Assembly (NCBI GenBank): GCA_965211995.1 | Contig: OZ243040.1 | Location: 1,235,363-1,299,362, forward strand | Direction: 5' to 3' | DNA length: 64,000 nucleotides | Origin: Candidatus Oxydemutatoraceae bacterium | Lineage (GTDB): Bacteria; Pseudomonadota; Gammaproteobacteria; Poriferisulfidales; Oxydemutatoraceae | Shown here: piece after piece, positions 2,393-45,691 of the stretch | How the letters are laid out: each line of letters opens with the position of its first letter | Numbering within the stretch: the first letter of the stretch is position 1 | Notes under the pieces: model-generated | The model's input: the letters and a program-made list of their open reading frames with translations, nothing else | Database searches by the model: none | Told to the model about the DNA's origin: nothing | Position numbers and translations under genes: made by a program

Positions 2393-2699
2393 TATTTTCA
2401 TCTCGAGAGACTTGCCGTTTAAAAAAACAGGATTTCAAAAGTGGGAAAAACAATAAAAATTTTCCTTGTTGATGGAGAACCTGATGGATTGAAACCCGCC
2501 GAACTAAGCAACCGGGCCGGTCAAACAACAGTTATTCCAAGAAATAAACTCAACGGTATCAAACAACGTTCTTAAGGGATTATAAGAAATAATCATGGCA
2601 AAAACGGAAGGAGACTTCCAGCCGACCATCCAAGACTTTCATTTGAAAAGGCATTTGGCCCACGGAATTTTTGCTTTTTACGGTCTTTATGAAAACGAA

Positions 2700-2810
2700 C
2701 GGCGCCCCTCGTCTGAAACGCCTCAACGCCGATGCCGCCAATGCGAACACCGCGAGCACAACGGCCGCCGCAATGACGATGCTCGGACCCGACAACGCAT
2801 CAATCAAGCA
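2700..2810 (-). pseudogene. fragment homologous to the znuB 3' end (about 35 codons, stop codon lost)
   Basis: Minus-strand translation reads SGPSIVIAAAVVLAVFALAASALRRFRR, against intact ZnuB SGPSIVTAAAGMFAVLALMSPVLARFRQ. DNA is about 70-75% identical to 6096-6200, in the same orientation. Confidence 0.55.
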
Positions 2811-2879
2811 CCCATTTCATCAAGGCGGCATTAGATTGGATCAGGCAAACTTATCCGATTCATTGAAACGCCGATCTAC

Positions 2880-3158
2880 ATGGGAGCCGAACGAGTTAAA
2901 AGCCCGAATCACCCCGCGCAAAAGCCGGTAAAAGTCCTGGAACACGTCATTAACCTTGCCTCGAACGAAGGCGACTTAGTGTTCGCCCCGTTCATGGGCG
3001 TCGGATCGACCGGGGTCGCCGCACTTAATCTGAACAGAAAATTTATCGGCATCGAGGCCGCTGAAAAATATCACGAAGCCGCAAAGAAAAGGCTGAATAA
3101 ACGACCCGCTAAATTATTCGCAGCCAAACGACAACTGAGCATAGCCGGGCAGTTATGA
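2880..3158 (+). pseudogene. C-terminal remnant of an N6/N4 DNA methyltransferase
   Basis: HPAQKPVKVLEHVI...GDLVFAPFMGVGSTGVAALNLNRKFIGIE is the conserved N4/N6 methylase C-terminal block. Only about 90 aa survive, with no N-terminal domain, and the upstream frame is disrupted. Confidence 0.55.
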
Positions 3159-3212
3159 ATATAGAAAGCGCAACATTTAATCGCAGAGAGTAAAAGACGC
3201 GAATGCTCCACC

Positions 3213-3246
3213 GGAAACCAACCGCAGCAAGCTGCGGTTGGTTTCC
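3213..3246. repeat. perfect inverted repeat GGAAACCAACCGCAGC-AA-GCTGCGGTTGGTTTCC (16-bp arms)
   Basis: Seen directly in the sequence, in the spacer between the convergent methylase remnant and hepT. A second perfect palindrome, CCGGACTAGTCCGG, lies about 100 bp further on. Confidence 0.6.
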
Positions 3247-3420
3247 GTCACGCCTACATAGTCGCCATCACGGAATCCCTTCACCTGCTCGCATAATTTC
3301 TGCACCGGCGGCGGCAACTTCTCCATGCGCGAACCGGACTAGTCCGGCACCCAACGGACGCCGGGATCCGGAACGTCCCAGGGGGGACGCGGGAAAATCC
3401 GGGGGAAGTGGCATGGGAAA

Positions 3421-3834
3421 TTATTTCAGTAAGTCGGCAAGTATGCCGGCGAATTCTATTAAGTCATCGGCATCTTTCTTGAGCACCTTTTCCACCAGCG
3501 TATAGTCAATCTCCCGATACTGATGAACGGTGATGTTTCTAAATCCCACCATGCCTTTTAATTTCTCTTCCAACTCAGCATCTATGATGTCCGCTTTCCA
3601 GAGCAAGGTAAAACTCTCGGCGCTTTCAGACGGAAGTCCAAGTTTTTTCAGACGAATTACATGGTTCGCCATGTCAATACACTGTTCGCAGGCTCTCTGT
3701 AAATTAACAACCACCGCATCTTGCTTATAAAAGTCATCGGTGAAAGGTTTTTCCGACGGGATTGCATAATAATCCCGCGCCTGCTTTATGCGCCGCTCTA
3801 TGCTGGCTTTTTTCTGCCAGAGAATATCAGACAT
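3421..3834 (-). CDS. hepT: HepT-family HEPN toxin (DUF86, nucleotidyltransferase substrate-binding protein-like)
   Basis: 137 aa. The Rx4HxY HEPN motif is present (RNITVHQY). It overlaps the upstream mntA by 8 nt. Confidence 0.8.
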   Translation of the reverse strand: MSDILWQKKASIERRIKQARDYYAIPSEKPFTDDFYKQDAVVVNLQRACEQCIDMANHVIRLKKLGLPSESAESFTLLWKADIIDAELEEKLKGMVGFRNITVHQYREIDYTLVEKVLKKDADDLIEFAGILADLLK

Positions 3835-4267
3835 CGTAAAACCTCCCGGTATTCAAACCACTTTCAACGATTTCCCGACGCTCCTCATTCAGTTTTTGAT
3901 AAAAAGACAGCGTCAGCATTTCAAATTCATCAGCCGCATTCTCATCAGCGCAGTAAATGCGCCGGTCGGCGGCGATAATTTCCTTGCGCAGAATCACCGG
4001 AGCCGTGCGTAGATTGACTAAATCAATACGATCCACTTTTGCGGCTGATGCAACTTCAACTGAAAGGTGGCCCCACGTTGAATAGTCAATGTCTCGCGCC
4101 GTTGTATTCGGAAGGAGCACGGCGATGTCCAAGTCGCTATCCTGGCGCTGGTATTCGGTGCCCCAGGTGCCGTAGATGTAAATGGCCTGGGTTTTGGGGT
4201 AAGCTTTCAAAATAGAATCAACAGATCTAGCAACAAATACTTCGATGCGTTTGGGAACAATAGTCAT
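3827..4267 (-). CDS. mntA: MntA-family minimal nucleotidyltransferase antitoxin
   Basis: 146 aa. The NTase motif GTWGTEYQRQDSDLDIAV (GS...DxD) is present. It overlaps the upstream gene by 4 nt and hepT by 8 nt. Confidence 0.8.
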   Translation of the reverse strand: MTIVPKRIEVFVARSVDSILKAYPKTQAIYIYGTWGTEYQRQDSDLDIAVLLPNTTARDIDYSTWGHLSVEVASAAKVDRIDLVNLRTAPVILRKEIIAADRRIYCADENAADEFEMLTLSFYQKLNEERREIVESGLNTGRFYDV

Positions 4268-5058
4268 AACTTATATCCCCAAATTTTATTGCGGTCTACA
4301 TGGCTCGTCATATCGGAGCATCGGTTTCCAGCGTGCTTTAACCACGAAAACATCCAAAGAAACCAAACAAAAAGAGAATTATCTTCTAGACACAAAAAAT
4401 CAAACATCTCGTTTCCTATTGCATCACGTTTAACTGGGGCTAGAGGTTTCTCATACGGACTATTCGGCTGACTCAATTTTGACAAAGATCGGTATGAACC
4501 ACCCGAAACAAGAAATTTTCCTGGGACAACAATGAAATCTGGGGATTCTCTATTAGGAATATCTTTAAGTATTAATTGAAGATTTTTTTTGACTGTCTTT
4601 GAGGCCGGTGCATCAAACGCCCAAAGGGTGAATAGCGAGTCCTTGATTTGTGGTATATGAGAATCACCGAACTCCCGAAGAAGTGTCTTGAACTTCCGAC
4701 ATTTTTTAACTGCATCTTGAATATCACGCGGATTGAGTTGCGTCTTAACTTCAATCAGGCTGTAAACAGATTCAACTAGGAAAATTTTTTTAGACATCTC
4801 TGAATGTAAACAGGTATTCCATATTTCATCATAAATAACTAAATCGGCTTCATTCGAAAATACCCCATTATGAGAAGTAATTAGTCCTGTATCCACGCCA
4901 AAGGCAGATGGCGGGTGTTTGCTTAAAAAATCAGCAAGAATACCTTCCCTGTTTTGCCCTGCTGAAAGATTGTGTGAGGTGAAATCACGATGGATACGTT
5001 CATGTTGGGAAGACATCTCCTTTGAGATTTCCCTCAGATATTCAGGCAACATGCTCAC
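4264..5058 (-). CDS. hypothetical protein with a PD-(D/E)xK-like nuclease motif, first gene of the mntA-hepT operon
   Basis: 264 aa (262 aa if the ATG at 5052, which has a GGAG RBS, is used). The motif ...EADLVIYDE...(x20)...LIEVK fits the D...(D/E)xK core. I recognise no named family. It overlaps the mntA start by 4 nt. Confidence 0.6.
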   Translation of the reverse strand: MSMLPEYLREISKEMSSQHERIHRDFTSHNLSAGQNREGILADFLSKHPPSAFGVDTGLITSHNGVFSNEADLVIYDEIWNTCLHSEMSKKIFLVESVYSLIEVKTQLNPRDIQDAVKKCRKFKTLLREFGDSHIPQIKDSLFTLWAFDAPASKTVKKNLQLILKDIPNRESPDFIVVPGKFLVSGGSYRSLSKLSQPNSPYEKPLAPVKRDAIGNEMFDFLCLEDNSLFVWFLWMFSWLKHAGNRCSDMTSHVDRNKIWGYKL

Positions 5059-5104
5059 ACTCCAATCTCCAAAATCTTCATCGTGTCATTCCCGAATATA
5101 TCCA

Positions 5105-5138
5105 CCACCTTGACGGCGATCTTCCGCCGTCAAGGTGG
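5105..5138. promoter_or_regulatory. perfect 14-bp inverted repeat CCACCTTGACGGCG-ATCTTC-CGCCGTCAAGGTGG about 50 nt upstream of the three-gene operon
   Basis: Seen directly. It overlaps the stop codon of the decayed upstream gene and is followed by a TATATT -10-like element and then a GGAG RBS. Candidate operator and/or terminator. Confidence 0.4.
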
Positions 5139-5139
5139 G

Positions 5140-5733
5140 CATTCTTGTTTCACGCTGGTCAATTCCAGCGAGCGGTCTTTCTTGGTGCGGAAACTTTGCC
5201 ATTCGTTTTCAAAGATGTAGTCGCCGCTCCATTGTTTTTCGGTTTCGCCGGTGTCTTCGTTTTTGACGCGGATGATTTCGCGTTTGCTTTCGAAGTCGAA
5301 GTCCACGGCTCAGTAGTCTATCCAGTCGGTTCAATGTTTGATTAGTTGTTCGCGGGAGATTTTACCATTTTTGTCTTTGCTGACGCGCACAATCTGGCCG
5401 TGGTCGGCGACAATTTTGGTTTTGCCGTCTTTGAGGGATTCTTCGGCGTTGGCGATACCCTGGGAGTAGTGTACGGAGAAGTCGGTCAATTCCACGGGCA
5501 CCGAAGCAAGTCCCCCTGACAAGAAGGATTTAGGGGGTTGCCTGTTCTCAACCCGACTCAGCAAATCAGTATGGACCCCTTCAAGATTATTCAGGATTGG
5601 TCTTACCCCGTTTTAACGGATACCGGTTTAGACTGAGGCCTCCTGCTGTTCATACACGACGGGCAGCGGCCTGCCGGCTTCGAGCAACCTTACGGCATCG
5701 CGCTTTTCACTATCTGTTAATTTCATTCGTTAG
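5140..5733 (-). pseudogene. remnants of one or more decayed genes of unknown function (in-frame stops)
   Basis: The minus-strand reading is broken by two in-frame stops: ...ISREQLIKH* TDWIDY* AVDFDFESKREIIRVKNEDTGETEKQWSGDYIFENEWQ... A 32-aa MKLTDSEKRDAVRLLEAGRPLPVVYEQQEASV stub sits at about 5635-5733. Confidence 0.35.
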
Positions 5734-8135: not shown

Positions 8136-9104
8136 ATGCGGAAAACGCTTGCCTGCTTCCTATCCGCGCTGCTTGCGGCCGGCGGCGCCCTCGCGGCGAC
8201 CGCGACCGACGGCAACGGCGTCGTGGTCAGCATCAAACCTCTGCACGCACTGGTGCAAGGGGTAATGGGCGGCACCGGAGAAGCTCGATTGCTGGTCGCA
8301 GACAACGCTTCACCCCACGGCTTCTCCTTCAAACCCTCGCACCTAAAGGCACTGCACGAGGCCGACGTCGTCTTTTACATTGACGAAACGTTCGAGCCGT
8401 TCCTGCACGGCGTCTTTGAAACCTTGCCGGCGCACGTGCGCAAAAACGCGGTGGCGCGGGCGGCGAACTTGACCGTTCTTGACCGCCGCGCAGGCGGCGC
8501 CTGGGAAGCGCACGCCCACGCAAGCCACGCACAAGAGGCCGGCGAAGAAGCCGAAGAAAACCGCAACAATCGCGACCCGCACGTGTGGCTCGACCCCGGC
8601 AACGCGAAAAAGATCGTAACGGCCGTCACCGGGGAACTCGGCGAGATTCACCCCGAAAACCGCGGTGTTTACAGGCACAACGCCCGCGCCGTGACCGCCC
8701 GCCTCGACGCGCTCGAGGCAAGGCTGGAGCGGGAACTCGCCGGCGTCCGCGACGTGCCGTTCGTCGTATTCCACGATGCTTATCAGTATTTTGAGCACCG
8801 TTACGGCCTGACCGGCGTCGGCTCGATCACTTTGAACCCGAACCTGCCTCCTTCGGTGGGCCGCATTCGGGAAATCCGCGGCAAGATCAGCGCCGCCGGC
8901 GCGGTCTGCGTCTTCCGCGAGCCGCAATTCTCCGACCGGCTGATAAAAGCGGTAACCCCCGCGGGCAACGTCAAAAGCGGCGTCCTCGACCCGCTCGGCG
9001 CCGGACTGGAGAACGGGGCGGACTTATATTTCAATCTGCTTGCAAACCTTGCGGAAAACTTCGTGCAATGCCTGGCCGATCCCGAGTCGGCGCGCACCCT
9101 CTAG
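8136..9104 (+). CDS. znuA: periplasmic zinc-binding protein ZnuA
   Basis: Signal peptide, cluster A-I substrate-binding-protein fold, and the characteristic His/acidic-rich loop HAHASHAQEAGEEAEENRNNRDPH. Confidence 0.85.
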   Translation: MRKTLACFLSALLAAGGALAATATDGNGVVVSIKPLHALVQGVMGGTGEARLLVADNASPHGFSFKPSHLKALHEADVVFYIDETFEPFLHGVFETLPAHVRKNAVARAANLTVLDRRAGGAWEAHAHASHAQEAGEEAEENRNNRDPHVWLDPGNAKKIVTAVTGELGEIHPENRGVYRHNARAVTARLDALEARLERELAGVRDVPFVVFHDAYQYFEHRYGLTGVGSITLNPNLPPSVGRIREIRGKISAAGAVCVFREPQFSDRLIKAVTPAGNVKSGVLDPLGAGLENGADLYFNLLANLAENFVQCLADPESARTL

Positions 9105-9408
9105 GTGTAGTTGCCGAATAGAATCTGAAATTGTCTGACCGATCATGAGTCGGCAGCAACTCCTTGGAGAGGCCCTGTTGTACCCGCAAACCTTACGGAT
9201 TGCAGCAGCTGAGCAGGCCCCCGCTTTTAAAGCCAAGCCCCTGCCGCGAAGCCTTGTTATACCGCTATTTCATCCGTGCCCGACTGCGAATCCGCCCTTG
9301 ATTTTTTCGGCTTCCGGTGGACTCGCTTCCGGCAGCCGTGATATTCTGCAAAATTCACCCCCTGAAAATTTATCGGCGAACCACTCTCAAAAAAACAACG
9401 GAGGCAAC

Positions 9409-10287
9409 ATGAAAAACGGCTTCGCAGGCGTCCGGGTCATTTTATTGTTTGCGCTCGGCTTAACGGCCGCATCCGCAGTTTCACAGGAGCGCAACGGGGC
9501 TTATTGGGGGCTCGACCTCGGCGTGTTTTTCCCGCAAAGCATCGCCTCCGATACCAACACCGACGACGTCGCCTCCACCAGTTGCGACGGCTTTCTGTTT
9601 GATAACTCAGCCCCGGCGTGTGCGCGACGCGGGGTGGATTTTATGAACCGCTTTGATATGGAAACCGGCGTGCTCGGCGGTGCCACTGTCGGATACATGA
9701 TGGACCACTTCCGTTTTGAACTCGAATACCTTTACAGAACGGGCGGAGGAGACACCTCTTCTCTGGGAATCATCAATAACAGAGGGGCCGGGGAGTTCGT
9801 GGTCGCCGATGAAAGCTTGGATGACTTTGAGTCGCACCACCTGTTTGCGAACATGTATTACGACTTTTTGAACAGTTCGAGATTTACGCCGTATTTCGGC
9901 ATCGGCATCGGCTGGACAAAAACCCAAGTTGACTACCAGGGGCTTTTTATCAGAAACAGCGCCGAGGTCTTCAGGAGTACTCCCGGCCTGAGAGACGTTG
10001 AAGCGGCGGCCGGAACCGTCTCCCGCAGCGAAGAAGAACTCGACGACGATGGATTCGGCTATCAACTTCTGGTCGGAGCCGATTACTGGATTGCGGAACA
10101 TCTTTCTCTCGGCATGAAAATCCGCTATGCCGAATTCGACGGGATCAGCGACGGACGCCACGAATGGGACCTGCTCAGAAGCCATGAATCGGCGCTCGAG
10201 CCCGGCGGCGACCGCGTCACCCTTGATGTTGACACCGACGATATTCGGTTCTGGGGCGCCTCGCTGAACCTGAAATACCAATTCTAG
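9409..10287 (+). CDS. outer-membrane beta-barrel protein (OmpA-like/Opa-like surface barrel family)
   Basis: Signal peptide MKNGFAGVRVILLFALGLTAASAVS, alternating amphipathic strands, C-terminal ...LNLKYQF ending in Phe. RBS GGAGG precedes the start. Confidence 0.6.
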   Translation: MKNGFAGVRVILLFALGLTAASAVSQERNGAYWGLDLGVFFPQSIASDTNTDDVASTSCDGFLFDNSAPACARRGVDFMNRFDMETGVLGGATVGYMMDHFRFELEYLYRTGGGDTSSLGIINNRGAGEFVVADESLDDFESHHLFANMYYDFLNSSRFTPYFGIGIGWTKTQVDYQGLFIRNSAEVFRSTPGLRDVEAAAGTVSRSEEELDDDGFGYQLLVGADYWIAEHLSLGMKIRYAEFDGISDGRHEWDLLRSHESALEPGGDRVTLDVDTDDIRFWGASLNLKYQF

Positions 10288-10336
10288 CCCGCATTTTTCA
10301 CGCGCGGGCGACGCGACGGGTTCACGGCGGAGAATT

Positions 10337-11299
10337 TCAATAACCGTCGGAGGTTGAGAACCATTTGTAACAGGAATGCCCCAGCCAGCGCCGAAAATGC
10401 CGAACCCCGGCGCACGGGCGGTAACGCCAAGACTTCTCCCTCGGTTTCTCCCGCGTTCTGAAAATCTCCTCAAATCTCGAAACGATGTTCTTTTCTTCCA
10501 GAAACCCGGGCTTGCGGTTATCCGAGAACGCCGGCTCGCTTAAATACTGCCGGTACAAATCATCGTTCCGATCCACTTCGATGACTCTTTGGATCACCGC
10601 GTCCCAACCGTCATAATCGCGGCAATTAATGAACGCTTTGGGGTTGAACTGCCGGTGCACCAACGGATCCCCCCAATAAATCGGAACGGTCGCACCGCCC
10701 AGTGCGTTCACCAGTTTTTCAGTGATATAGGCGGGATGTGAATTATTTTCAAAAGCGATCGTAAACTTGTAGGGACGATAAAAACCGGGCGTGCCGCCCG
10801 CATATCCGGGAACGCGCTTGCCCATGTTATTAAACGCCGCCCCGCCGGCGTCCACGCGCTTATATTCGGACAGTTTATGCAAAAAATCATTCCTGTATGC
10901 GACCCCCGGGTAGTAATTGAACAGTGTTCTCGGTCTCTTTCTGGAATAAACAAAATTGCAAAACCTGGTCTTTAATTTCATCAGTTCATCCACGTCTTTT
11001 TCCGCAAACAGCAACGGATACAGGGGCGAGAAAAAGTAGCCCGGCAGGTAATAATTCCTGCTTGAAGCGGGCGACATGCTGAAAGCGAAATCGTAATTGT
11101 AAAGATCCAGATTGCTTCTTTCATAAGTGTAAAAAATGCGGATGCATTGGTAGCGGCGATAATTGAGGCCCCCGGTCGAGCAGATCAAAAAATCCGGCGT
11201 ATCGCTGATTTCGAGGTCAAAATGCCCGGATAAAAAATCGCGCAACTTACCAGTCCAAGCGATGTTATCCGTAAACTGAATCTTGATGGGCCTGTTCAT
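10337..11299 (-). CDS. GT10 alpha-1,3-fucosyltransferase
   Basis: Carries the FucT signature ...KFTIAFENNSHPAYITEKLVNA... (FENS...Y[IV]TEK). GC content is clearly below the flanks (roughly 50%) and it lies adjacent to tRNA-Met. Confidence 0.75.
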   Translation of the reverse strand: MNRPIKIQFTDNIAWTGKLRDFLSGHFDLEISDTPDFLICSTGGLNYRRYQCIRIFYTYERSNLDLYNYDFAFSMSPASSRNYYLPGYFFSPLYPLLFAEKDVDELMKLKTRFCNFVYSRKRPRTLFNYYPGVAYRNDFLHKLSEYKRVDAGGAAFNNMGKRVPGYAGGTPGFYRPYKFTIAFENNSHPAYITEKLVNALGGATVPIYWGDPLVHRQFNPKAFINCRDYDGWDAVIQRVIEVDRNDDLYRQYLSEPAFSDNRKPGFLEEKNIVSRFEEIFRTREKPREKSWRYRPCAGVRHFRRWLGHSCYKWFSTSDGY

Positions 11300-11350
11300 G
11301 TCCTTGGTCGTGAGTTCCGGGGCACAGCAACGCCGCCGACCGGAGAAGAC

Positions 11351-11426
11351 GGTGGCTATGGCTGGACTTGAACCAGCGACACCGGCATTATGAATGCCGT
11401 GCTCTAACCGACTGAGCTACATAGCC
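11351..11426 (-). tRNA. tRNA-Met (anticodon CAU; elongator, or possibly the tRNA-Ile2 lysidine type)
   Basis: The reverse complement GGCTATGTAGCTCAGTCGGTTAGAGCACGGCATTCATAATGCC...GGTTCAAGTCCAGCCATAGCCACC is close to E. coli metT. Confidence 0.8.
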
Positions 11427-11479
11427 ACAACCCGCTTATTTTAGTACACCACCGAAAGCCCCGCAATCAATGCCGCGGT

Positions 11480-12574
11480 TCAGACGTTAAAGCGGAAATG
11501 CACGACGTCGCCTTCACACACGGCGTAATCCTTGCCTTCCAGCCGCAACTTGCCCGCCTCTTTGGCGCCGTGTTCGCCACCGCAGGCGACGTAGTCCTCG
11601 TAGGCGATCACTTCGGCGCGGATGAACCCTTGCTCAAAGTCGCTGTGGATGCAGCCGGCGGCCTGCGGCGCAAGCGACCCTGTCCGCGTCGTCCAGGCAC
11701 GCGCCTCTTTCGGGCCCGCGGTAAAAAAAGTCAGCAACTCGAGCGCCCGGTAACCCGCCGCGATCACGCGCTCGAGCCCCGACGCGCCGTCTCCCGCGTC
11801 CTCGGCAAAGGCCGCGCGCTCTTGTTCGTCGAGTTCCTGCAACTCGGCCTCAAGTTTCGCGCTCACCGTCAGCAGTTCCAGCCCATTGGCGTCAACGTAT
11901 TTGCGCACTTCGTCCACGCGGCGCGCGCCGTCCTCCCCCCCGCCTTCATCCACGTTGGCCACCACGATCATCGGCTTCGCCGTGATCAGGTTCAGTTCAC
12001 GCGCGGCGGCGCGTTCGGCGGCGTCGAGTTCCAACCCGCGCACGGGCTTGCCCTGAGCCAACTCGTCATAGAGGCGTTGCGCCGCGCGGCGGCGCGCGAG
12101 TTCATCTTTGCCGCCCGCCTTCGCGGCTTTTTCCGCACGCGCGGCGGCGCGTTCGGCGACCTCAAGATCGGCGAGCAGCAACTCGGTGCCGATGGTTTCG
12201 ATATCGGCGACCGGATCGACCCGGTCCGCGACGTGGATCACCTCGCCGCCTTCAAAGCAACGCACCACCTGGGCGATCGTGTGCGTGCGGCGGATATGCT
12301 CGAGAAAGCGGTTGCCGAGCCCCTCGCCCTTTGATGCGCCTGCGACCAACCCGGCGATATCCACGAATTCAAGCACGGTCGGAATCGTCCGCCGTGATTT
12401 TGCGATCCGTGAAATCCTGTCAAGACGCTCGTCGGGCACCGGCACCGTGCCGATGTTCGGCTCGATCGTGCAAAAAGGATAGTTCTCGGCGCCGACGCCC
12501 ATCCGAGTCAGCGCGTTGAACAACGTCGACTTGCCGACGTTCGGCAACCCGACAATGCCGCACTTAAAGCCCAT
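11480..12574 (-). CDS. ychF: ribosome-binding ATPase YchF (Obg-family GTPase)
   Basis: MGFKCGIVGLPNVGKSTLFNALT... G1 motif, TGS C-terminal domain. Start taken at MGFK. Confidence 0.9.
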   Translation of the reverse strand: MGFKCGIVGLPNVGKSTLFNALTRMGVGAENYPFCTIEPNIGTVPVPDERLDRISRIAKSRRTIPTVLEFVDIAGLVAGASKGEGLGNRFLEHIRRTHTIAQVVRCFEGGEVIHVADRVDPVADIETIGTELLLADLEVAERAAARAEKAAKAGGKDELARRRAAQRLYDELAQGKPVRGLELDAAERAAARELNLITAKPMIVVANVDEGGGEDGARRVDEVRKYVDANGLELLTVSAKLEAELQELDEQERAAFAEDAGDGASGLERVIAAGYRALELLTFFTAGPKEARAWTTRTGSLAPQAAGCIHSDFEQGFIRAEVIAYEDYVACGGEHGAKEAGKLRLEGKDYAVCEGDVVHFRFNV

Positions 12575-38036: not shown

Positions 38037-40307
<2,271 letters not shown>

Positions 40308-40332
40308 TCATGCCAAGCCCTGAGTGAGCAAT

Positions 40333-40420
40333 CGGTTCATCCCCACCCGCGTGGGGAACACAATAGCTAAATTATTTTTTTGATTTTTCGCCGGTTCATC
40401 CCCACCCGCGTGGGGAACAC
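40333..40420 (-). CRISPR. orphan CRISPR remnant, type I-E-like: two 29-nt repeats GTGTTCCCCACGCGGGTGGGGATGAACCG flanking one 30-nt spacer
   Basis: Repeats at 40333-40361 and 40392-40420 are identical, palindromic-core and I-E-like. The spacer is GCGAAAAATCAAAAAAATAATTTAGCTATT. An AT-rich (about 42% GC) leader-like stretch runs 40421-40700 on the transcription-proximal side. No cas genes are in the window. Confidence 0.7.
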
Positions 40421-40751
40421 GTGATACGCCAGTGGGTGCCACGAAGTCCCGGAACCTTCAACTGAATTGGCCTTACCCCAAAAATTAAGGCTATTTCCAG
40501 ATAAAACCATGTCACTGTCTCTTTTAATATTCTCAGTCATATTTGCTCTCTTGAAGCCGAAGCATTGCGTAATTTCTGCCTGACCGATCACAAAATATAG
40601 GGTGATTCCGCCTGTGTCAGTTATCTGGTGGAGAACCAGGGTGCCTTCGTGGATAGACTTCCCGCCCTCTGCAATCAGCAACGGTATCCACATTTCACCT
40701 TTGATATTATATGCTTCTCATCGCCCAATCATCGGCAAGCCGAGAAACATT

Positions 40752-41090
40752 GTGCTCGAATTTTCCCCCGCAGAACTGAAAAGCCGCCTTGCATCGGCTG
40801 AAACCTCAGCCCAAACTCCGCCGTTTTTGCTCGACGTGCGCGAGCAATGGGAATACGACGTCGCACACCTGCCGGACTCGGTGCTGATACCGGTCTCCGA
40901 GATCACGGCGAGACTCGGCGAACTCGACCCGCAACGTGAAACCGTCGTGATCTGCCATCACGGCATCCGCAGCATGAAAATTGCGCAACTACTTAAACAG
41001 GCCGGATTCGAGCGTGTGATAAACTTGCGCGGCGGTTTGGATGCGTGGGCGAAAGAAGTTGACCCGGCGATGCCGACTTACACCAAGTGA
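40752..41090 (+). CDS. single-domain rhodanese (GlpE-like sulfurtransferase)
   Basis: Active-site Cys in VVICHHGIRS, about 112 aa from a GTG. The rest of ORF 40602.. is CRISPR-leader sequence. Confidence 0.7.
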   Translation: MLEFSPAELKSRLASAETSAQTPPFLLDVREQWEYDVAHLPDSVLIPVSEITARLGELDPQRETVVICHHGIRSMKIAQLLKQAGFERVINLRGGLDAWAKEVDPAMPTYTK

Positions 41091-42578: not shown

Positions 42579-43907
42579 GTGAATGATCGCGCGACCCGGC
42601 CCGGCGCCTTTGTCTATCGTTGTTTGTTGCGGCTGCTGTTTCCGGCAATCGCCGCGGGCACGGCCGCGGTCGCACTGCGCGACGGCAGCCTGCGTTATCT
42701 AGCGCAACGTCTCGGGCATTTTCACGCCGTTGCCGCCGCGACGGCACAACCGCTGTGGATCCACTGCGCCTCGGTCGGCGAGACCAACGCCGCGCTGACG
42801 TTCGTCGAGGCGTGGCTCAAACGCCATCCCGGCGATGAGTTTGTGCTGACCACCAACACCGTCACCGCCGCGAAGATGCTCGCCTCGCGCGCACCGACCG
42901 CCGCGTCCGGGCGCGTGCGCCATTGCTATCTGCCGCTCGACTACCCTCTTTTCTGCCGCCGCTTTCTCGACGCAGTCAAGCCGCGCTGCGCCCTGATCAT
43001 CGAGACCGAGATCTGGCTGAACCTGTTTTGCGAATGTCACGGCAGAGGCATCCCGCTGCTCATCATCAACGCGCGCCTGTCACAACGCACGCTCGACGGC
43101 GCACGCCGGTTCAAGGACTACTACCGACAAAGCCTCGCCGCAGTGCAAGCGATACTCGCGCGCAGCGAAAAAGACGCCGCGGCGTTCGCCGCGCTCGGAA
43201 TTGCGGCGGACAAAATCACCGTCACCGGCAATTTGAAACGGGCGGGAAACAAGACGACAACGCTGCCCGACCTGATCGGCAGACGCTACGTCCTCGCGGC
43301 GTCAACTCATGCAGACGAAGAAGTGCAGGCCGCCGAAGCCTGGCGGCGTGCGCTCGCCCGGGGCCAGCCTCCGAGCGAGCGGCTGCTGGTGGTCGCACCG
43401 AGGCACCCGCGGCGCGGGCGTGCAATAGCGCGGCAACTGAAAAAGCGCGGCTTCGACGTGCGACTTAGAAGCCGCACGCAAGCGCCCCCTCAAGCCACAC
43501 CGGCGCGTATATCGGTGTATATCGCCGACACGCTCGGCGAACTGCCGGCGCTGATCCGCCACGCCGACCTCGTCTTCATGGGCGGCTCGCTGGCGCCCGT
43601 CGGCGGACATAACGTGCTCGAACCGGCGCAACTCGGCGTCCCTCAAGTTACCGGCCCGCACACGCACAGTTTTCACGAGGAGGTCGCCGCGCTCAAAGCC
43701 GTGGGCGGCCTGATCGAAGCGCCCGACCAAGACGCACTCGAGGCGGTGTTCCGGGCGGCGCTCGACGACGCGCCCGCGCACGCCGCCGCCGCGGAAAAAG
43801 CCCTGACGCTGATGCGGGAATACGCAGACGTCGTCGCCGCCTACGTCAACCAGGTCGAAGCCGCTGCGGCGGCACTTCACCCAAACTCCGCTTACTCAAA
43901 GCGATAA
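42579..43907 (+). CDS. waaA: 3-deoxy-D-manno-octulosonic acid (Kdo) transferase
   Basis: WIHCASVGETNAALTFVEAWL..., GT30 family. Confidence 0.85.
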   Translation: MNDRATRPGAFVYRCLLRLLFPAIAAGTAAVALRDGSLRYLAQRLGHFHAVAAATAQPLWIHCASVGETNAALTFVEAWLKRHPGDEFVLTTNTVTAAKMLASRAPTAASGRVRHCYLPLDYPLFCRRFLDAVKPRCALIIETEIWLNLFCECHGRGIPLLIINARLSQRTLDGARRFKDYYRQSLAAVQAILARSEKDAAAFAALGIAADKITVTGNLKRAGNKTTTLPDLIGRRYVLAASTHADEEVQAAEAWRRALARGQPPSERLLVVAPRHPRRGRAIARQLKKRGFDVRLRSRTQAPPQATPARISVYIADTLGELPALIRHADLVFMGGSLAPVGGHNVLEPAQLGVPQVTGPHTHSFHEEVAALKAVGGLIEAPDQDALEAVFRAALDDAPAHAAAAEKALTLMREYADVVAAYVNQVEAAAAALHPNSAYSKR

Positions 43908-44623
43908 CCCGCGAGCAGTTCGGAAAAATCCCGGTCTTCGTACATGAAAACAGCCGAGCGCGAGCGCAGTTTCAAAAGAGAGCGCCGCAACCTTTTCAGA
44001 TTGCCCGCAAAACGCGCGGCGCGCGCACCCGCAACGATACGCGCCTTATCAAAATCCACGAGGAAAATCGCTTGCGTGGCGTCGCCGAGCAGAACGTTAT
44101 GCGCGTTGAGATCGGCGTGATGAACGCCCGCAGCGTGAAAACGGCGCAGCACCGCGCCGAGCGCGCGCCAGTGTGCGGCGGGCAAACGCGCCTGCGTGAG
44201 CAGCCGCGACAACGGCCGTGCGTGCAGGCGAAACGTGATCAGATCCGCGCTGTAACACCCGCCGCTGCGGCGATAACGCGCCGCGCACGGTGCCGGCGCG
44301 GGCAGCCCCAGCCGCTGCAATTCGGCCAGCAGCCGCCATTCGCGGAACGAGCGCACCGCCGCCTCCCCGGCGTAACAATAGGTATCGCGGATGAAGCGCC
44401 CTGGCCAGCCGCCGCGCCGGTAATGCTTGAGCACGAACTCGCCGCCCCCGGCCACAGCATCGGCGGTGAAAAAAACCGCGGGTGCACGGCCGCCGTCGGT
44501 CTCCCGCGCCGCACCCGCCCGTTCCAGTGCATCGCGGTCGAACCAGGCGGAAGAAAATCGAGGAACGGCGTCGCCATCGTATAGGATATGCACGCCATCT
44601 TGTCGAATGAATCGCTGTTTCAC
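43892..44623 (-). CDS. kdkA: Kdo kinase KdkA
   Basis: HYRRGGWPGRF...HADLNAHNVLL...FLVDFDKA matches KdkA motifs. Convergent with waaA, overlapping it by 16 nt. A GTG start is proposed to avoid overlap with waaC. The alternative ATG at 44719 gives about 276 aa. Confidence 0.7.
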   Translation of the reverse strand: MKQRFIRQDGVHILYDGDAVPRFSSAWFDRDALERAGAARETDGGRAPAVFFTADAVAGGGEFVLKHYRRGGWPGRFIRDTYCYAGEAAVRSFREWRLLAELQRLGLPAPAPCAARYRRSGGCYSADLITFRLHARPLSRLLTQARLPAAHWRALGAVLRRFHAAGVHHADLNAHNVLLGDATQAIFLVDFDKARIVAGARAARFAGNLKRLRRSLLKLRSRSAVFMYEDRDFSELLAGYRFE

Positions 44624-44635
44624 GCCGATCGAACC

Positions 44636-45691
44636 ATGCCCCGTCCCGCCGCCATCCCCGACAACCCACCCCGGACGATCTGCCTGGTGCGCCTGTCGGC
44701 GATTGGAGACGTCACCCATACGCTGCCGGTGGTTAATACTATCAGGTCTCACTGGCCGCAAACTAAAATCACCTGGGTTATCGGCAAGTCCGAACTCGAA
44801 CTGGTGCGCGACCTGCCCGGCGTGGAGTTCATCACTTTCGACAAGCGCCTCGGTGCGCGCGCTTATCTCAACTTGCGCCGGCAACTGCGCGGCCGCCGCT
44901 TCGACGTGCTGTTGCTGATGCAACTGTCGCTGCGCGCGAACTTGATCCCGCTGTTCGTCACCGCGCCCGTCAGAATGGGTTTCGACCGGCGCCGCGCGAA
45001 AAACCTGCACGGTCTGTTCATCAACCGCAGGATCGAAGCAAAAGCGAACCAACACGTGCTCGACGCCTTCTTCTGCTTCACCGAAGCTTTGGGCATCACC
45101 GAAAGAAGACTCGCGTGGGACCTGTGTTGCGCGGACGAAGAACACGCGTTCGCCGAGAGGGTCCTGCCGGAAACCGGCCGGCATACGCTGCTGATCAGTC
45201 CGTGCTCAAGCCATGCACGCAGAAACTGGCCGCCCGAACGCTACGCCGAGATCGCCGACTACGCCGCCGAAACCCGCGCGCTGCGCGTCGTGCTCACCGG
45301 CGAGCGCAGCGCATGCGACTACGCCCGGCGAATCACCGGCGCAATGCGCACCCGCCCACTCGACCTGACCGGGCGCACGACGTTGCGCCAACTGATGGCC
45401 GTGATCCTGCGCGCCGATATCGTGCTCAGCCCCGACTCCGGCCCGGCGCACCTTGCGACCTGCGCCGGCAAGCCCGTCATCGGTTTGTACGCCGCGAGCA
45501 ACCCCGCCCGCACCGGCCCCTACCTAAGCCGGCGGCAATGCGTCAACCGCTACCCCGACGCGGTGCGCCGCTGCCTCGGCAAGGATTGGCGGACGCTCCC
45601 GTGGGGAACCCGCGTCAACAAATCCGGCGTGATGGAATTAATCACCGTCGCCGACGTGCGCGAAAAGCTCGACGAACTGGTTCAGAGTTAG
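44636..45691 (+). CDS. waaC: ADP-heptose:LPS heptosyltransferase I (GT9)
   Basis: ICLVRLSAIGDVTHTLPVVNTI... GT9 N-terminus, about 350 aa. Confidence 0.8.
   Translation: MPRPAAIPDNPPRTICLVRLSAIGDVTHTLPVVNTIRSHWPQTKITWVIGKSELELVRDLPGVEFITFDKRLGARAYLNLRRQLRGRRFDVLLLMQLSLRANLIPLFVTAPVRMGFDRRRAKNLHGLFINRRIEAKANQHVLDAFFCFTEALGITERRLAWDLCCADEEHAFAERVLPETGRHTLLISPCSSHARRNWPPERYAEIADYAAETRALRVVLTGERSACDYARRITGAMRTRPLDLTGRTTLRQLMAVILRADIVLSPDSGPAHLATCAGKPVIGLYAASNPARTGPYLSRRQCVNRYPDAVRRCLGKDWRTLPWGTRVNKSGVMELITVADVREKLDELVQS

What the first reader, a model, noticed from the sequence alone, without database searches (positions are those of the whole stretch)
10337..11430. Horizontally acquired GT10 alpha-1,3-fucosyltransferase next to tRNA-Met
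The gene carries the diagnostic FucT motif (IAFENNSHPAYITEKL), is markedly lower in GC than its neighbours, stands alone with no other glycosylation genes, and abuts tRNA-Met, a classic insertion hotspot. The adjacent plus-strand gene encodes an OmpA-like surface barrel. Bacterial GT10 enzymes build Lewis-x-like or fucosylated LPS/O-antigen epitopes, for example in Helicobacter. Finding one in this genomic context suggests fucosylated surface glycans, and possibly host-mimicry or phage-receptor variation.
Basis: partly seen in the sequence, partly recalled or inferred. Interest (0 to 1): 0.55.

Follow-up and report, generated by a model that had tools for sequence, protein, structure and literature searches.

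The report
Orphan GT10 fucosyltransferase in variable slot
The gene is a real, intact GT10-family fucosyltransferase sitting alone after tRNA-Met; it is an accessory gene that has been lost, moved and probably swapped among members of one uncultured small-genome gammaproteobacterial clade, which makes it an ordinary surface-sugar-decorating gene, not a new kind of system.

Summary
ORF 10337-11299(-) encodes a 320-aa GT10 enzyme. Both Pfam domains pass their cut-offs, the AF2 model matches H. pylori FucT (TM 0.69), and all six catalytic/GDP-fucose residues are conserved. It lies 51 nt after an elongator tRNA-Met. Its GC3s is 0.60 against 0.80±0.045 for 51 window genes (z=-4.4).

The gene belongs to a four-member subfamily (52-71% identical to each other, ≤48% to anything else among 5.8 billion proteins). 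All four sit in one uncultured clade of ~1.3-2.1 Mb genomes. In that clade the ychF-tRNA-Met…znuA interval is a variable slot. GT10 occupies it in 3 of 11 genomes, at different positions, and lies elsewhere in a fourth.

The GT10 tree (WIN+L001+L091, 99%) conflicts with the flanking-gene tree (WIN+L085+L002, 98-100%). This points to old lateral exchange inside the clade. There is no integrase, att repeat or phage gene.

Horizontal acquisition is therefore partly supported: the source is within the clade, the event is not recent, and it is not a classical tRNA island. Alpha-1,3 specificity, Lewis-like products and host mimicry remain untested. This is a new member of a known kind, of low to moderate interest.

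The parts
10337..11299 (-). GT10 fucosyltransferase CDS (320 aa, ATG start, TGA stop)
   Evidence: PF00852 scores 74.4 bits (cut-off 23.9) and PF18025 FucT_N 39.2 bits (cut-off 27.2). The best PDB sequence hit is H. pylori FucT 2nzw, E 6.6e-19. The AF2 model has pLDDT 87.9, and the top Foldseek hit is 2nzx with TM 0.69.
10712..10759 (-). GT10 alpha1,3/4-FucT motif IAFENNSHPAYITEKL (residues 181-196), holding N185, Y191, E194 and K195
   Evidence: These residues align to H. pylori FucT N240, Y246, E249 and K250. E60 (codon 11120-11122) aligns to the catalytic E95, and R136 (codon 10892-10894) to R195.
10340..10447 (-). Basic/aromatic C-terminal tail (residues 285-320; predicted helix 294-314), a putative peripheral membrane anchor; ends in the subfamily-specific SDGY
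   Evidence: The last 36 residues hold 9 K/R and 8 F/W/Y. This segment has the highest hydrophobic moment in the protein (0.52), and there is no transmembrane segment. DSSP assigns a helix at 294-314. The tail is shared only by P0001-P0004.
11300..11350 (-). 51-nt spacer between tRNA-Met and the GT10 ATG, with an AAGGA ribosome-binding site; no promoter or terminator match
   Evidence: Sequence read; consensus scan. Co-transcription with tRNA-Met or ychF is inferred, not shown.
11351..11426 (-). Elongator tRNA-Met (CAT); conserved after ychF in 10 of 11 clade genomes; the terminal A of CCA is not encoded here
   Evidence: ARAGORN and Rfam. Clade comparison. Homology between genomes ends exactly at the tRNA 3' end.
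10288..10336 (.). 49-nt convergent intergenic spacer between the GT10 stop and the OMP stop
   Evidence: It shows no significant similarity to the 'empty' L085 spacer.
9409..10287 (+). Outer-membrane beta-barrel protein (OMP_b-brl), an ancestral resident of the slot and not part of the GT10 acquisition
   Evidence: PF13505 56.9 bits. Orthologues at 57-70% identity sit in the same slot without GT10 in L083, L084 and L085. The true start is given.
8136..9104 (+). znuA, the distal conserved flank of the variable slot (followed by zur, znuC and znuB on the other strand)
   Evidence: PF01297 207.8 bits; synteny.
11480..12574 (-). ychF, the proximal conserved flank of the slot
   Evidence: PF06071 and PF01926. 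Clade members are 71-84% identical, everything else is ≤66%.
42579..45691 (+). WaaA Kdo transferase (42579-43907) and GT9 heptosyltransferase (44588-45691). They show the cell builds an LPS/LOS inner core, a candidate scaffold for the acceptor
   Evidence: PF04413 194 bits and PF01075 163.5 bits. GC3s is typical for the genome (z -0.9 and 0.0). The link to GT10 is inferred only.

Best explanation
The ORF encodes a functional, cytoplasmic, peripherally membrane-associated GT-B inverting glycosyltransferase of family GT10.

Mechanism (inferred): like H. pylori FucT, it most likely takes GDP-beta-L-fucose and uses Glu60 as general base, with Arg136, Asn185, Tyr191, Glu194 and Lys195 holding the donor. 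It would add one alpha-linked fucose as a terminal decoration on a glycan assembled elsewhere. The most plausible acceptor is the LOS/LPS outer core or another surface polysaccharide, built at the inner face of the inner membrane. It probably rides on the tRNA-Met/ychF transcript, because only 51 nt with a ribosome-binding site separate it from the tRNA.

Evolution: it is a single-gene accessory cassette belonging to a GT10 lineage endemic to one uncultured clade of small-genome Gammaproteobacteria. Within that clade the ychF-tRNA-Met…znuA interval is a gain/loss hotspot. The window's copy most likely came by old lateral exchange, through recombination with a clade relative (L001/L091-like, lower GC), into a lineage whose close relative L085 has the slot empty.

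Shown: family, fold, active-site conservation, intactness, patchy distribution, composition, tree conflict.
Inferred: donor and acceptor, linkage, transcription, direction and mechanism of transfer.
For: Family and function:
- Both Pfam GT10 domains score above their cut-offs.
- The best PDB sequence hit is H. pylori FucT.
- E60, R136, N185, Y191, E194 and K195 correspond to Hp E95, R195, N240, Y246, E249 and K250. R136, Y191 and K195 are invariant across 54 homologues, and E60, N185 and E194 are ≥90% conserved.
- The AF2 model has pLDDT 87.9. Its top structural hits are Hp FucT (TM 0.69), then plant and human GT10 FUTs.
- There is no transmembrane segment, and the tail is basic and amphipathic.
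- All four subfamily copies are intact ORFs of about 320 aa.
- WaaA and a GT9 in the window show that an LPS core is made.

Accessory and lateral:
- In 11 clade genomes the slot holds GT10 (WIN, L002, L091), RRM±OMP (L083, L084, L088, L090), OMP only (L085), nothing (L089), or unrelated cargo (L086, L087; TnpB in L084).
- L001 carries the closest copy (71%) next to rplU-rpmA-obg. It is a clade member by Obg.
- GC3s gives z=-4.4 in WIN and z=-4.8 in L001, but only -1.9 in the lower-GC host L002.
- The four GT10s are monophyletic (100%). {WIN, L001, L091} excludes L002 at 99%. Core and flank genes give {WIN, L085, L002} at 100% and 98%, excluding L091.
- None of 80 outgroup Gammaproteobacteria has GT10 or znuA after ychF.
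Against: - There is no biochemical evidence for donor, acceptor or linkage.
- GDP-fucose synthesis genes (gmd/fcl or fkp) could not be looked for, because only 64 kb of the 1.94 Mb genome is available.
- No glycan genes are adjacent.
- Low GC3 is also seen in the vertically inherited RRM gene and partly in the OMP of the same slot, so composition is not decisive.
- L002's GT10 branch is about 1.5x longer than the others. Part of the tree conflict could therefore be a rate artefact.
- L091 is placed from only YchF C-terminus + OMP + ZnuA, and L001 from Obg alone.
- No recombination junctions could be recognised, because the intergenic sequences are too diverged.
Confidence: 0.6

Rival explanations
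1. Purely vertical history. GT10 was in the ychF…znuA slot of the clade ancestor and has since been lost repeatedly during genome reduction and shuffled locally. Its low GC3 is a gene-intrinsic property (weak expression, or a Phe/Tyr/Asn/Lys-rich composition), not a transfer signal.
For: - The subfamily is clade-specific and monophyletic.
- GT10 abuts znuA convergently in both L002 and L091, which belong to different subclades. This suggests an old shared arrangement.
- GT10 divergence between WIN and L002 (55%) is similar to ZnuA (52%). L001-WIN Obg is 75% against GT10 71%.
- The syntenic RRM gene also has persistently low GC3.
- The slot shows decay elsewhere, such as the OMP fragment in L088.
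- No pair of genomes has GT10 more similar than its core genes.
Against: - The GT10 tree (99%) conflicts with the flank and core trees (98-100%).
- WIN has GT10 on the other side of the OMP compared with L091, in the same orientation. A simple inversion or deletion cannot produce this.
- GC3s stays at 0.59-0.62 in hosts ranging from 0.67 to 0.83.
- No GT10 remnants were found in the genomes that lack it.
Confidence: 0.27
2. Recent import from a distant phylum by a tRNA-targeting integrative element or phage (a classical genomic island or serotype-converting prophage remnant).
For: - The gene is adjacent to the tRNA 3' end, and homology between genomes breaks exactly at that end.
- Composition is atypical.
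- GT10 relatives exist on IMG/VR viral contigs (269 matches).
Against: - There are no integrase, recombinase, transposase or phage genes within 10 kb.
- There is no direct repeat of the tRNA 3' end.
- The insert is a bare ~1.0 kb ORF.
- The nearest non-clade homologues are ≤48% identical and viral ones ≤42%.
- Relatives within the clade at 55-71% show long residence.
- The deviation (z -4.4) is much milder than that of the truly foreign-looking HepT/MNT/DUF6602 patch in the same window (z -6.8 to -10.8).
Confidence: 0.04
3. A GT10-fold enzyme with a non-canonical job, for example protein O-fucosylation (as shown for animal FUT10/FUT11) or glycosylation of the neighbouring OMP, or use of a different GDP-sugar, as opposed to Lewis-type LPS decoration.
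For: - The subfamily has a unique 10-13-residue insertion just before the donor-binding R136, 'ER' instead of the usual 'EN' after the catalytic Glu, and a unique tail.
- No glycan cluster is nearby.
- Members of GT10 are now known to act as protein O-fucosyltransferases (title and abstract of PMC11949838, listed).
Against: - All donor-binding residues of Hp FucT are kept.
- The OMP and GT10 occur independently of each other across the clade.
- There is no signal peptide, so the enzyme is cytoplasmic while the OMP folds in the outer membrane.
Confidence: 0.09

Closest known systems
Helicobacter pylori alpha1,3- and alpha1,3/4-fucosyltransferases FutA/FutB/FucTa (CAZy GT10; PDB 2NZW/2NZX/2NZY, 5ZOI)
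   Same: - Both have the FucT_N + Glyco_transf_10 architecture and the GT-B fold (TM 0.69).
- The catalytic Glu and the R/N/Y/E/K donor-binding set are conserved.
- Both are cytoplasmic enzymes with a basic amphipathic C-terminus.
- Both are stand-alone genes outside an O-antigen cluster that add a terminal decoration.
- PMC4202792 describes these as inverting GT-B enzymes with Glu95 as catalytic residue.
   Different: - Only about 23% identical overall.
- 320 aa against roughly 425-480 aa.
- No C-terminal heptad-repeat region and no poly-C phase-variation tract; the longest homopolymer is 6 nt.
- The acceptor-specificity segment near the Hp C-terminus has no counterpart.
- The host is an uncultured marine-metagenome gammaproteobacterium.
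Uncharacterised environmental bacterial GT10 proteins (for example 'glycosyltransferase family 10 domain-containing protein' of Planctomycetota, Pirellulaceae and Geomonas subterranea)
   Same: These are the closest sequence relatives outside the clade: 40-48% identity over about 90% of the length, the same two domains, and a similar size of 305-350 aa.
   Different: The window's subfamily (P0001-P0004) differs by a deletion in the N-terminal 'DFWH…' segment, an insertion (LFNYYPGVAY) before R136, ER in place of EN at the catalytic Glu, and a WRYRPC…SDGY tail. None of these relatives has been tested experimentally.
Eukaryotic GT10 FUTs (human FUT9 8D0O, Arabidopsis FUT11 9S6A, mango FUT13 7YRO)
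   Same: Same family, and the same C-terminal donor-binding domain and motif.
   Different: 18-20% identity. The eukaryotic enzymes are type II Golgi membrane proteins with stem regions and disulfides, and they act on N-glycans or LacNAc.
tRNA-associated genomic islands
   Same: Location directly 3' of a tRNA, atypical composition, and variable presence among relatives.
   Different: No integrase, no att direct repeats, and a single gene only. The slot looks like a recombination and gene-loss hotspot between conserved flanks, not an integration site.

Membership tests
CAZy GT10 / Pfam Glyco_transf_10 fucosyltransferases | C-terminal GT10 catalytic domain (PF00852) above the curated threshold | tested here: met
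   74.4 bits against a cut-off of 23.9, residues 135-253.
CAZy GT10 / Pfam Glyco_transf_10 fucosyltransferases | Bacterial-type N-terminal acceptor domain (PF18025 FucT_N) | tested here: met
   39.2 bits against a cut-off of 27.2, residues 17-86.
CAZy GT10 / Pfam Glyco_transf_10 fucosyltransferases | GT-B two-Rossmann fold superposable on a solved GT10 structure | tested here: met
   AF2 pLDDT 87.9, pTM 0.86. The Foldseek top 7 hits are H. pylori FucT (E 2.8e-18, TM 0.69), followed by FUT13, FUT9 and FUT11.
CAZy GT10 / Pfam Glyco_transf_10 fucosyltransferases | Catalytic base and GDP-fucose-binding residues (Hp E95, R195, N240, Y246, E249, K250) and the FxxxFENxxxxxYxTEK motif | tested here: met
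   E60, R136, N185, Y191, E194 and K195 are all present. They are invariant or ≥90% conserved in 54 homologues.
CAZy GT10 / Pfam Glyco_transf_10 fucosyltransferases | GDP-L-fucose-dependent alpha1,3 (or alpha1,4) transfer activity | not testable with these tools
   Needs an enzyme assay. The linkage and acceptor cannot be read from the sequence.
Helicobacter-type Lewis-antigen FucT (FutA/FutB) | C-terminal heptad (DD/NLRV/INY) repeats and homopolymeric phase-variation tracts | tested here: not met
   The protein is only 320 aa with no tandem repeats, and the longest homopolymer is 6 nt.
tRNA-integrated genomic island | Integrase or recombinase gene next to the tRNA | tested here: not met
   The neighbours are ychF, pth, L25, prs, OMP, znuA, zur, znuC and znuB.
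tRNA-integrated genomic island | Direct repeat of the tRNA 3' end at the distal boundary (attL/attR) | tested here: not met
   Only chance-level 13-16-nt matches were found in 8900-11700.
tRNA-integrated genomic island | Atypical composition and variable presence among close relatives | tested here: met
   GC3s z=-4.4. GT10 is in the slot in 3 of 11 clade genomes.
O-antigen / LPS outer-core biosynthesis cluster | Co-location with nucleotide-sugar synthesis genes, other glycosyltransferases, and a flippase, polymerase or ligase | tested here: not met
   None lies within about 10 kb on either side. The nearest glycosyltransferases are WaaA and a GT9 about 31 kb away.

The most novel reading that the evidence does not exclude
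The clade may consist of host-associated (for example coral- or sponge-associated) reduced-genome symbionts. In that case this endemic GT10 cassette would be a strain-variable determinant, exchanged between clade members by homologous recombination in the conserved ychF/tRNA-Met and znuA flanks. It would put a fucosylated, host-like epitope on the cell surface, making it a single-gene switch for host recognition or phage evasion. The subfamily-specific insertion next to the donor-binding Arg and the unique tail could give it a new acceptor specificity.
Probability: 0.12. Interest if true: 0.5.

Novelty: new member of a known kind. Interest (0 to 1): 0.25.

Why it matters
If active, the enzyme would make surface fucosylation a strain-variable trait in an uncultured clade of small-genome marine Gammaproteobacteria. 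Few bacterial GT10 enzymes have been characterised, so it would also add a compact 320-aa bacterial GT10 scaffold with a distinct acceptor-side architecture. For genome interpretation, the case is a useful caution. A gene next to a tRNA with low GC is not necessarily a classical island. Here the signal reflects a long-lived recombination and gene-loss hotspot, and vertically inherited genes in the same slot also show depressed GC3.

Tried and rejected
It returned only distant Gammaproteobacteria (≤63% identity), so it served as an outgroup panel and did not sample the clade.
2. The exact-protein look-up of the window's own GT10 returned no contig. Cluster look-ups returned no organism names. 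Accession searches in the literature found nothing.
3. The search for att-like repeats, promoters and terminators around the gene found nothing above chance.
4. Aligning the 'empty' L085 spacer to the window's two GT10 flanks gave scores no better than shuffles (p about 0.3-0.4). Aligning the sequence downstream of tRNA-Met across 10 genomes showed no conserved stretch beyond the tRNA. No breakpoints could be defined.
5. A tblastn search found no GT10 pseudogene remnants in GT10-less clade genomes at E≤1.
6. The phage-vector idea was rejected: viral GT10 relatives are ≤42% identical, and there are no phage genes nearby.
7. The idea that the OMP is co-acquired cargo was rejected, because the OMP is present without GT10 in L083, L084 and L085.
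8. L001 could not be placed using window genes, because none are shared. It was placed through Obg, matching contig lengths to clade genomes.
Full report
OBSERVATION. The ORF at 10337-11299 on the minus strand is real (320 aa). It carries IAFENNSHPAYITEKL at residues 181-196, window 10712-10759. A tRNA-Met(CAT) lies at 11351-11426 on the same strand, immediately upstream. It is an elongator type with G1-C72 paired, and only 51 nt with an AAGGA ribosome-binding site separate it from the ATG. A consensus scan finds no promoter or terminator in that spacer. Gene GC is 0.50, against 0.64-0.65 for the flanking znuA and ychF. In a leave-one-out test against 51 other genes of the window, its GC3s is 0.603 against a mean of 0.803 (sd 0.045). 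That gives z=-4.4, lower than every reference gene, and synonymous-codon typicality gives z=-2.7. The plus-strand neighbour is an outer-membrane beta-barrel (PF13505, 56.9 bits). Its true start is 9409 (GGAGG ribosome-binding site, signal peptide), not 9145. The claim 'no other glycosylation genes' holds within about 10 kb. The window also holds WaaA (42579-43907) and a GT9 heptosyltransferase (44588-45691), so the cell makes an LPS/LOS inner core.

WHAT THE PROTEIN IS. Both GT10 Pfam domains pass their curated thresholds: Glyco_transf_10 at 74.4 bits and FucT_N at 39.2 bits. The best solved relative by sequence is H. pylori alpha1,3-FucT (2nzw, E 6.6e-19). In that alignment the catalytic base and all donor-binding residues are kept. 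Hp E95, R195, N240, Y246, E249 and K250 correspond to E60, R136, N185, Y191, E194 and K195. These positions are invariant or ≥90% conserved across 54 homologues. An AlphaFold2 model is confident (pLDDT 87.9, pTM 0.86). Its best structural matches are the H. pylori enzyme (TM 0.69), then mango FUT13, human FUT9 and Arabidopsis FUT11. There is no transmembrane segment or signal peptide. The last 36 residues are rich in Arg/Lys (9) and aromatics (8), and form a predicted helix with the highest hydrophobic moment in the protein. This resembles the peripheral membrane anchor of bacterial FucTs. The H. pylori-type heptad repeats and homopolymeric phase-variation tracts are absent. GT10 membership is therefore established. 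Donor, acceptor and linkage are inferred by analogy only. The review PMC4202792 describes GT10 as inverting GT-B alpha3/4-fucosyltransferases with Glu95 as the catalytic residue in the H. pylori structure.

WHERE IT COMES FROM. Among about 5.8 billion proteins, only three exceed 50% identity: P0002 (71%), P0003 (67-68%) and P0004 (55%). Everything else is ≤48%, and the named hits are Planctomycetota, Pirellulaceae and Geomonas. The four form a subfamily with shared derived characters: a 10-13-residue insertion before R136, ER instead of EN after the catalytic Glu, and a WRYRPC…SDGY tail. They are monophyletic at 100% bootstrap. All four are intact ORFs of about 320 aa; the shorter gene calls were start-codon artefacts.

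A YchF search defines the host clade. About 15 genomes are 71-84% identical, then there is a gap down to ≤66%. Many of them are single contigs of 1.3-2.1 Mb, and the window's own contig is 1,943,614 bp. The gene order hemA-prfA…lolB-ispE-tRNA-Gln-prs-L25-pth-ychF is gammaproteobacterial. Eighty outgroup Gammaproteobacteria (YchF ≤63%) have neither GT10 nor znuA after ychF.

THE SLOT. Read with ychF on the plus strand, the interval between ychF-tRNA-Met and the znu operon holds different contents in different genomes:
- WIN: GT10(+) OMP(-) znuA(-).
- L002: GT10(+) znuA(-).
- L091/L092: RRM(+) OMP(-) GT10(+) znuA(-).
- L083: RRM, OMP.
- L084: IS605-type TnpB, RRM, OMP, with znuA missing.
- L085: OMP, znuA.
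- L088: RRM, an OMP pseudogene fragment, znuA.
- L090: RRM, znuA.
- L089: nothing (ychF then zur, and no tRNA-Met).
- L086 and L087: unrelated cargo (a methylase plus a duplicated ychF 3' fragment, and defence-like genes).

L001 carries the closest GT10 (71%) at a different locus, next to rplU-rpmA-obg. Its Obg best matches the window's own genome (75%) and then other clade genomes, so L001 is a clade member. GT10 is thus an accessory gene found in 4 of 12 sampled genomes, at three different positions within the slot and one position outside it. The OMP is an ancestral resident of the slot and not GT10-linked cargo. The stretch after tRNA-Met is indeed a hotspot. However, there is no integrase, att repeat or mobile-element gene at the window's copy. 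Sequence homology between genomes simply stops at the tRNA 3' end.

VERTICAL OR LATERAL? A concatenated core alignment (2,895 columns) gives {WIN, L085, L002} 100% bootstrap support, with the internal order unresolved. The flank genes (YchF C-terminus + OMP + ZnuA) give the same split at 98%, excluding L091. They also give WIN+L085 at 90%, and ZnuA alone gives L091+L088 at 90%. The GT10 tree, in contrast, groups {WIN, L001, L091} at 99% and excludes L002. Consistent with this, WIN-L091 GT10 identity (68%) exceeds that of their OMP (57%) and ZnuA (50%). WIN-L002 GT10 identity (55%) does not exceed OMP (63%) or ZnuA (52%). WIN also has GT10 on the opposite side of the OMP from L091, in the same orientation. 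The simplest reading has three steps. The GT10 lineage is old in the clade, probably originally next to znuA as in L002 and L091. It has been lost often. The window's copy was then regained by recombination from an L001/L091-like relative into a lineage resembling L085, whose slot is empty.

Composition fits this reading but is not decisive. GT10 GC3s stays at 0.59-0.62 in hosts whose core GC3s ranges from 0.67 to 0.83. It is an outlier in WIN (z -4.4) and L001 (z -4.8) but not in L002 (z -1.9). However, the highly conserved (80-93%), syntenic RRM gene also sits about 0.2 below host GC3. The event is not recent, because no pair of genomes has GT10 more similar than its core proteins. Caveats are that the L002 GT10 branch is about 1.5x longer, and that L091 and L001 are placed from few genes.

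RIVALS. Purely vertical descent with repeated loss remains possible at about 0.27. A recent cross-phylum import through a tRNA-targeting element or phage is essentially excluded. GT10 relatives do exist on viral contigs, but at ≤42% identity. A non-canonical activity, such as protein O-fucosylation, cannot be excluded given the subfamily-specific insertion next to the donor-binding Arg.

COMPARISON AND VERDICT. The protein works like, and is a member of, GT10. It is not a Helicobacter-type phase-variable Lewis-antigen enzyme, and the locus is not a classical tRNA island or an O-antigen cluster. It is a new member, a small clade-specific subfamily, of a known kind. The horizontal-acquisition reading is partly supported in a modified form: old exchange inside the clade, within a recombination and gene-loss hotspot. 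Interest is low to moderate.

Noticed in passing
window 2400-5600 (next to tRNA-Ser(GGA) 2302-2392): A second and much stronger low-GC patch. It holds an N6/N4 DNA-methylase fragment (2880-3158), a HepT/MNT toxin-antitoxin pair (3421-3834 and 3827-4267) and a DUF6602 gene (4264-5058), with GC3s z of -6.8 to -10.8. The equivalent tRNA-Ser…znuB gap holds a transposase plus a HindIII-type restriction-modification system in L002 and a transposase in L084, so this is the more dynamic hotspot.
   Followed up: partly
window 9145-9408: The mechanical ORF for the OMP starts at 9145. The real start is 9409 (GGAGG ribosome-binding site, signal peptide; orthologues are 292-301 aa). The 88 upstream codons are probably not translated.
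   Followed up: yes
window 40602-41090: A rhodanese-domain gene also has low GC3s (0.61, z=-4.2; codon typicality z=-3.6) although it sits among typical genes next to a TolC-like OEP gene. The origin was not examined.
   Followed up: no
window 11351-11353; L086 12727; L087 11235: The tRNA-Met gene lacks the encoded terminal A of CCA (…CCACC|G) in WIN, L086 and L087, which are three genomes with non-standard cargo directly downstream. L002, L083-L085, L088, L090 and L091 encode CCACCA. This could mark a recombination breakpoint exactly at the tRNA 3' end, or it could be chance.
   Followed up: partly
L086 11427-12582: An N6/N4 methylase gene is followed by a 143-aa duplicate of the YchF C-terminal domain, inserted between ychF and tRNA-Met. 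This looks like a footprint of an insertion that duplicated the ychF 3' end. LPS genes (Kdo kinase-like x2, GT9) and a 7,958-aa LRR/Calx-beta protein lie downstream.
   Followed up: no
L084 11380-12480: An IS605-family TnpB/OrfB gene sits directly after tRNA-Met, and znuA is missing from the znu operon in this genome.
   Followed up: no
L088 12014-12313: The 99-aa ORF between RRM and znuA is the C-terminal third of the OMP (66% identical to residues 194-292 of the window's OMP), so it is a decaying pseudogene. Two GT25 glycosyltransferase genes follow znuB in this genome.
   Followed up: partly
L083, L084, L088, L090, L091 (RRM gene after tRNA-Met); absent from the window: A small RRM_1 RNA-binding protein (91-104 aa, 80-93% identical across the clade) is the commonest occupant of the slot. 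Its GC3 is persistently low (0.40-0.56) despite vertical inheritance. It is not found anywhere in the 64-kb window.
   Followed up: partly
L093-L172 (IMG/VR contigs): 269 viral-collection stretches encode GT10 relatives (27-42% identity), several of them on giant-virus MAG contigs (GVMAG). This shows the wider family is carried by viruses, though not this subfamily.
   Followed up: no
L001 9346-9714: In L001 the GT10 is followed by a 122-aa EamA/TMEM234-like small membrane protein. It might be a flippase-type partner (reminiscent of ArnE/F-type small transporters, from memory). The window has no counterpart.
   Followed up: no
window 38037-40600: The thiC ORF is called at 746 aa, and the ThiC-associated domain begins only at residue 138, so the ORF may be over-extended at its 5' end. 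Rfam at gathering threshold reports no TPP riboswitch upstream; only the four tRNAs were found in the window.
   Followed up: no
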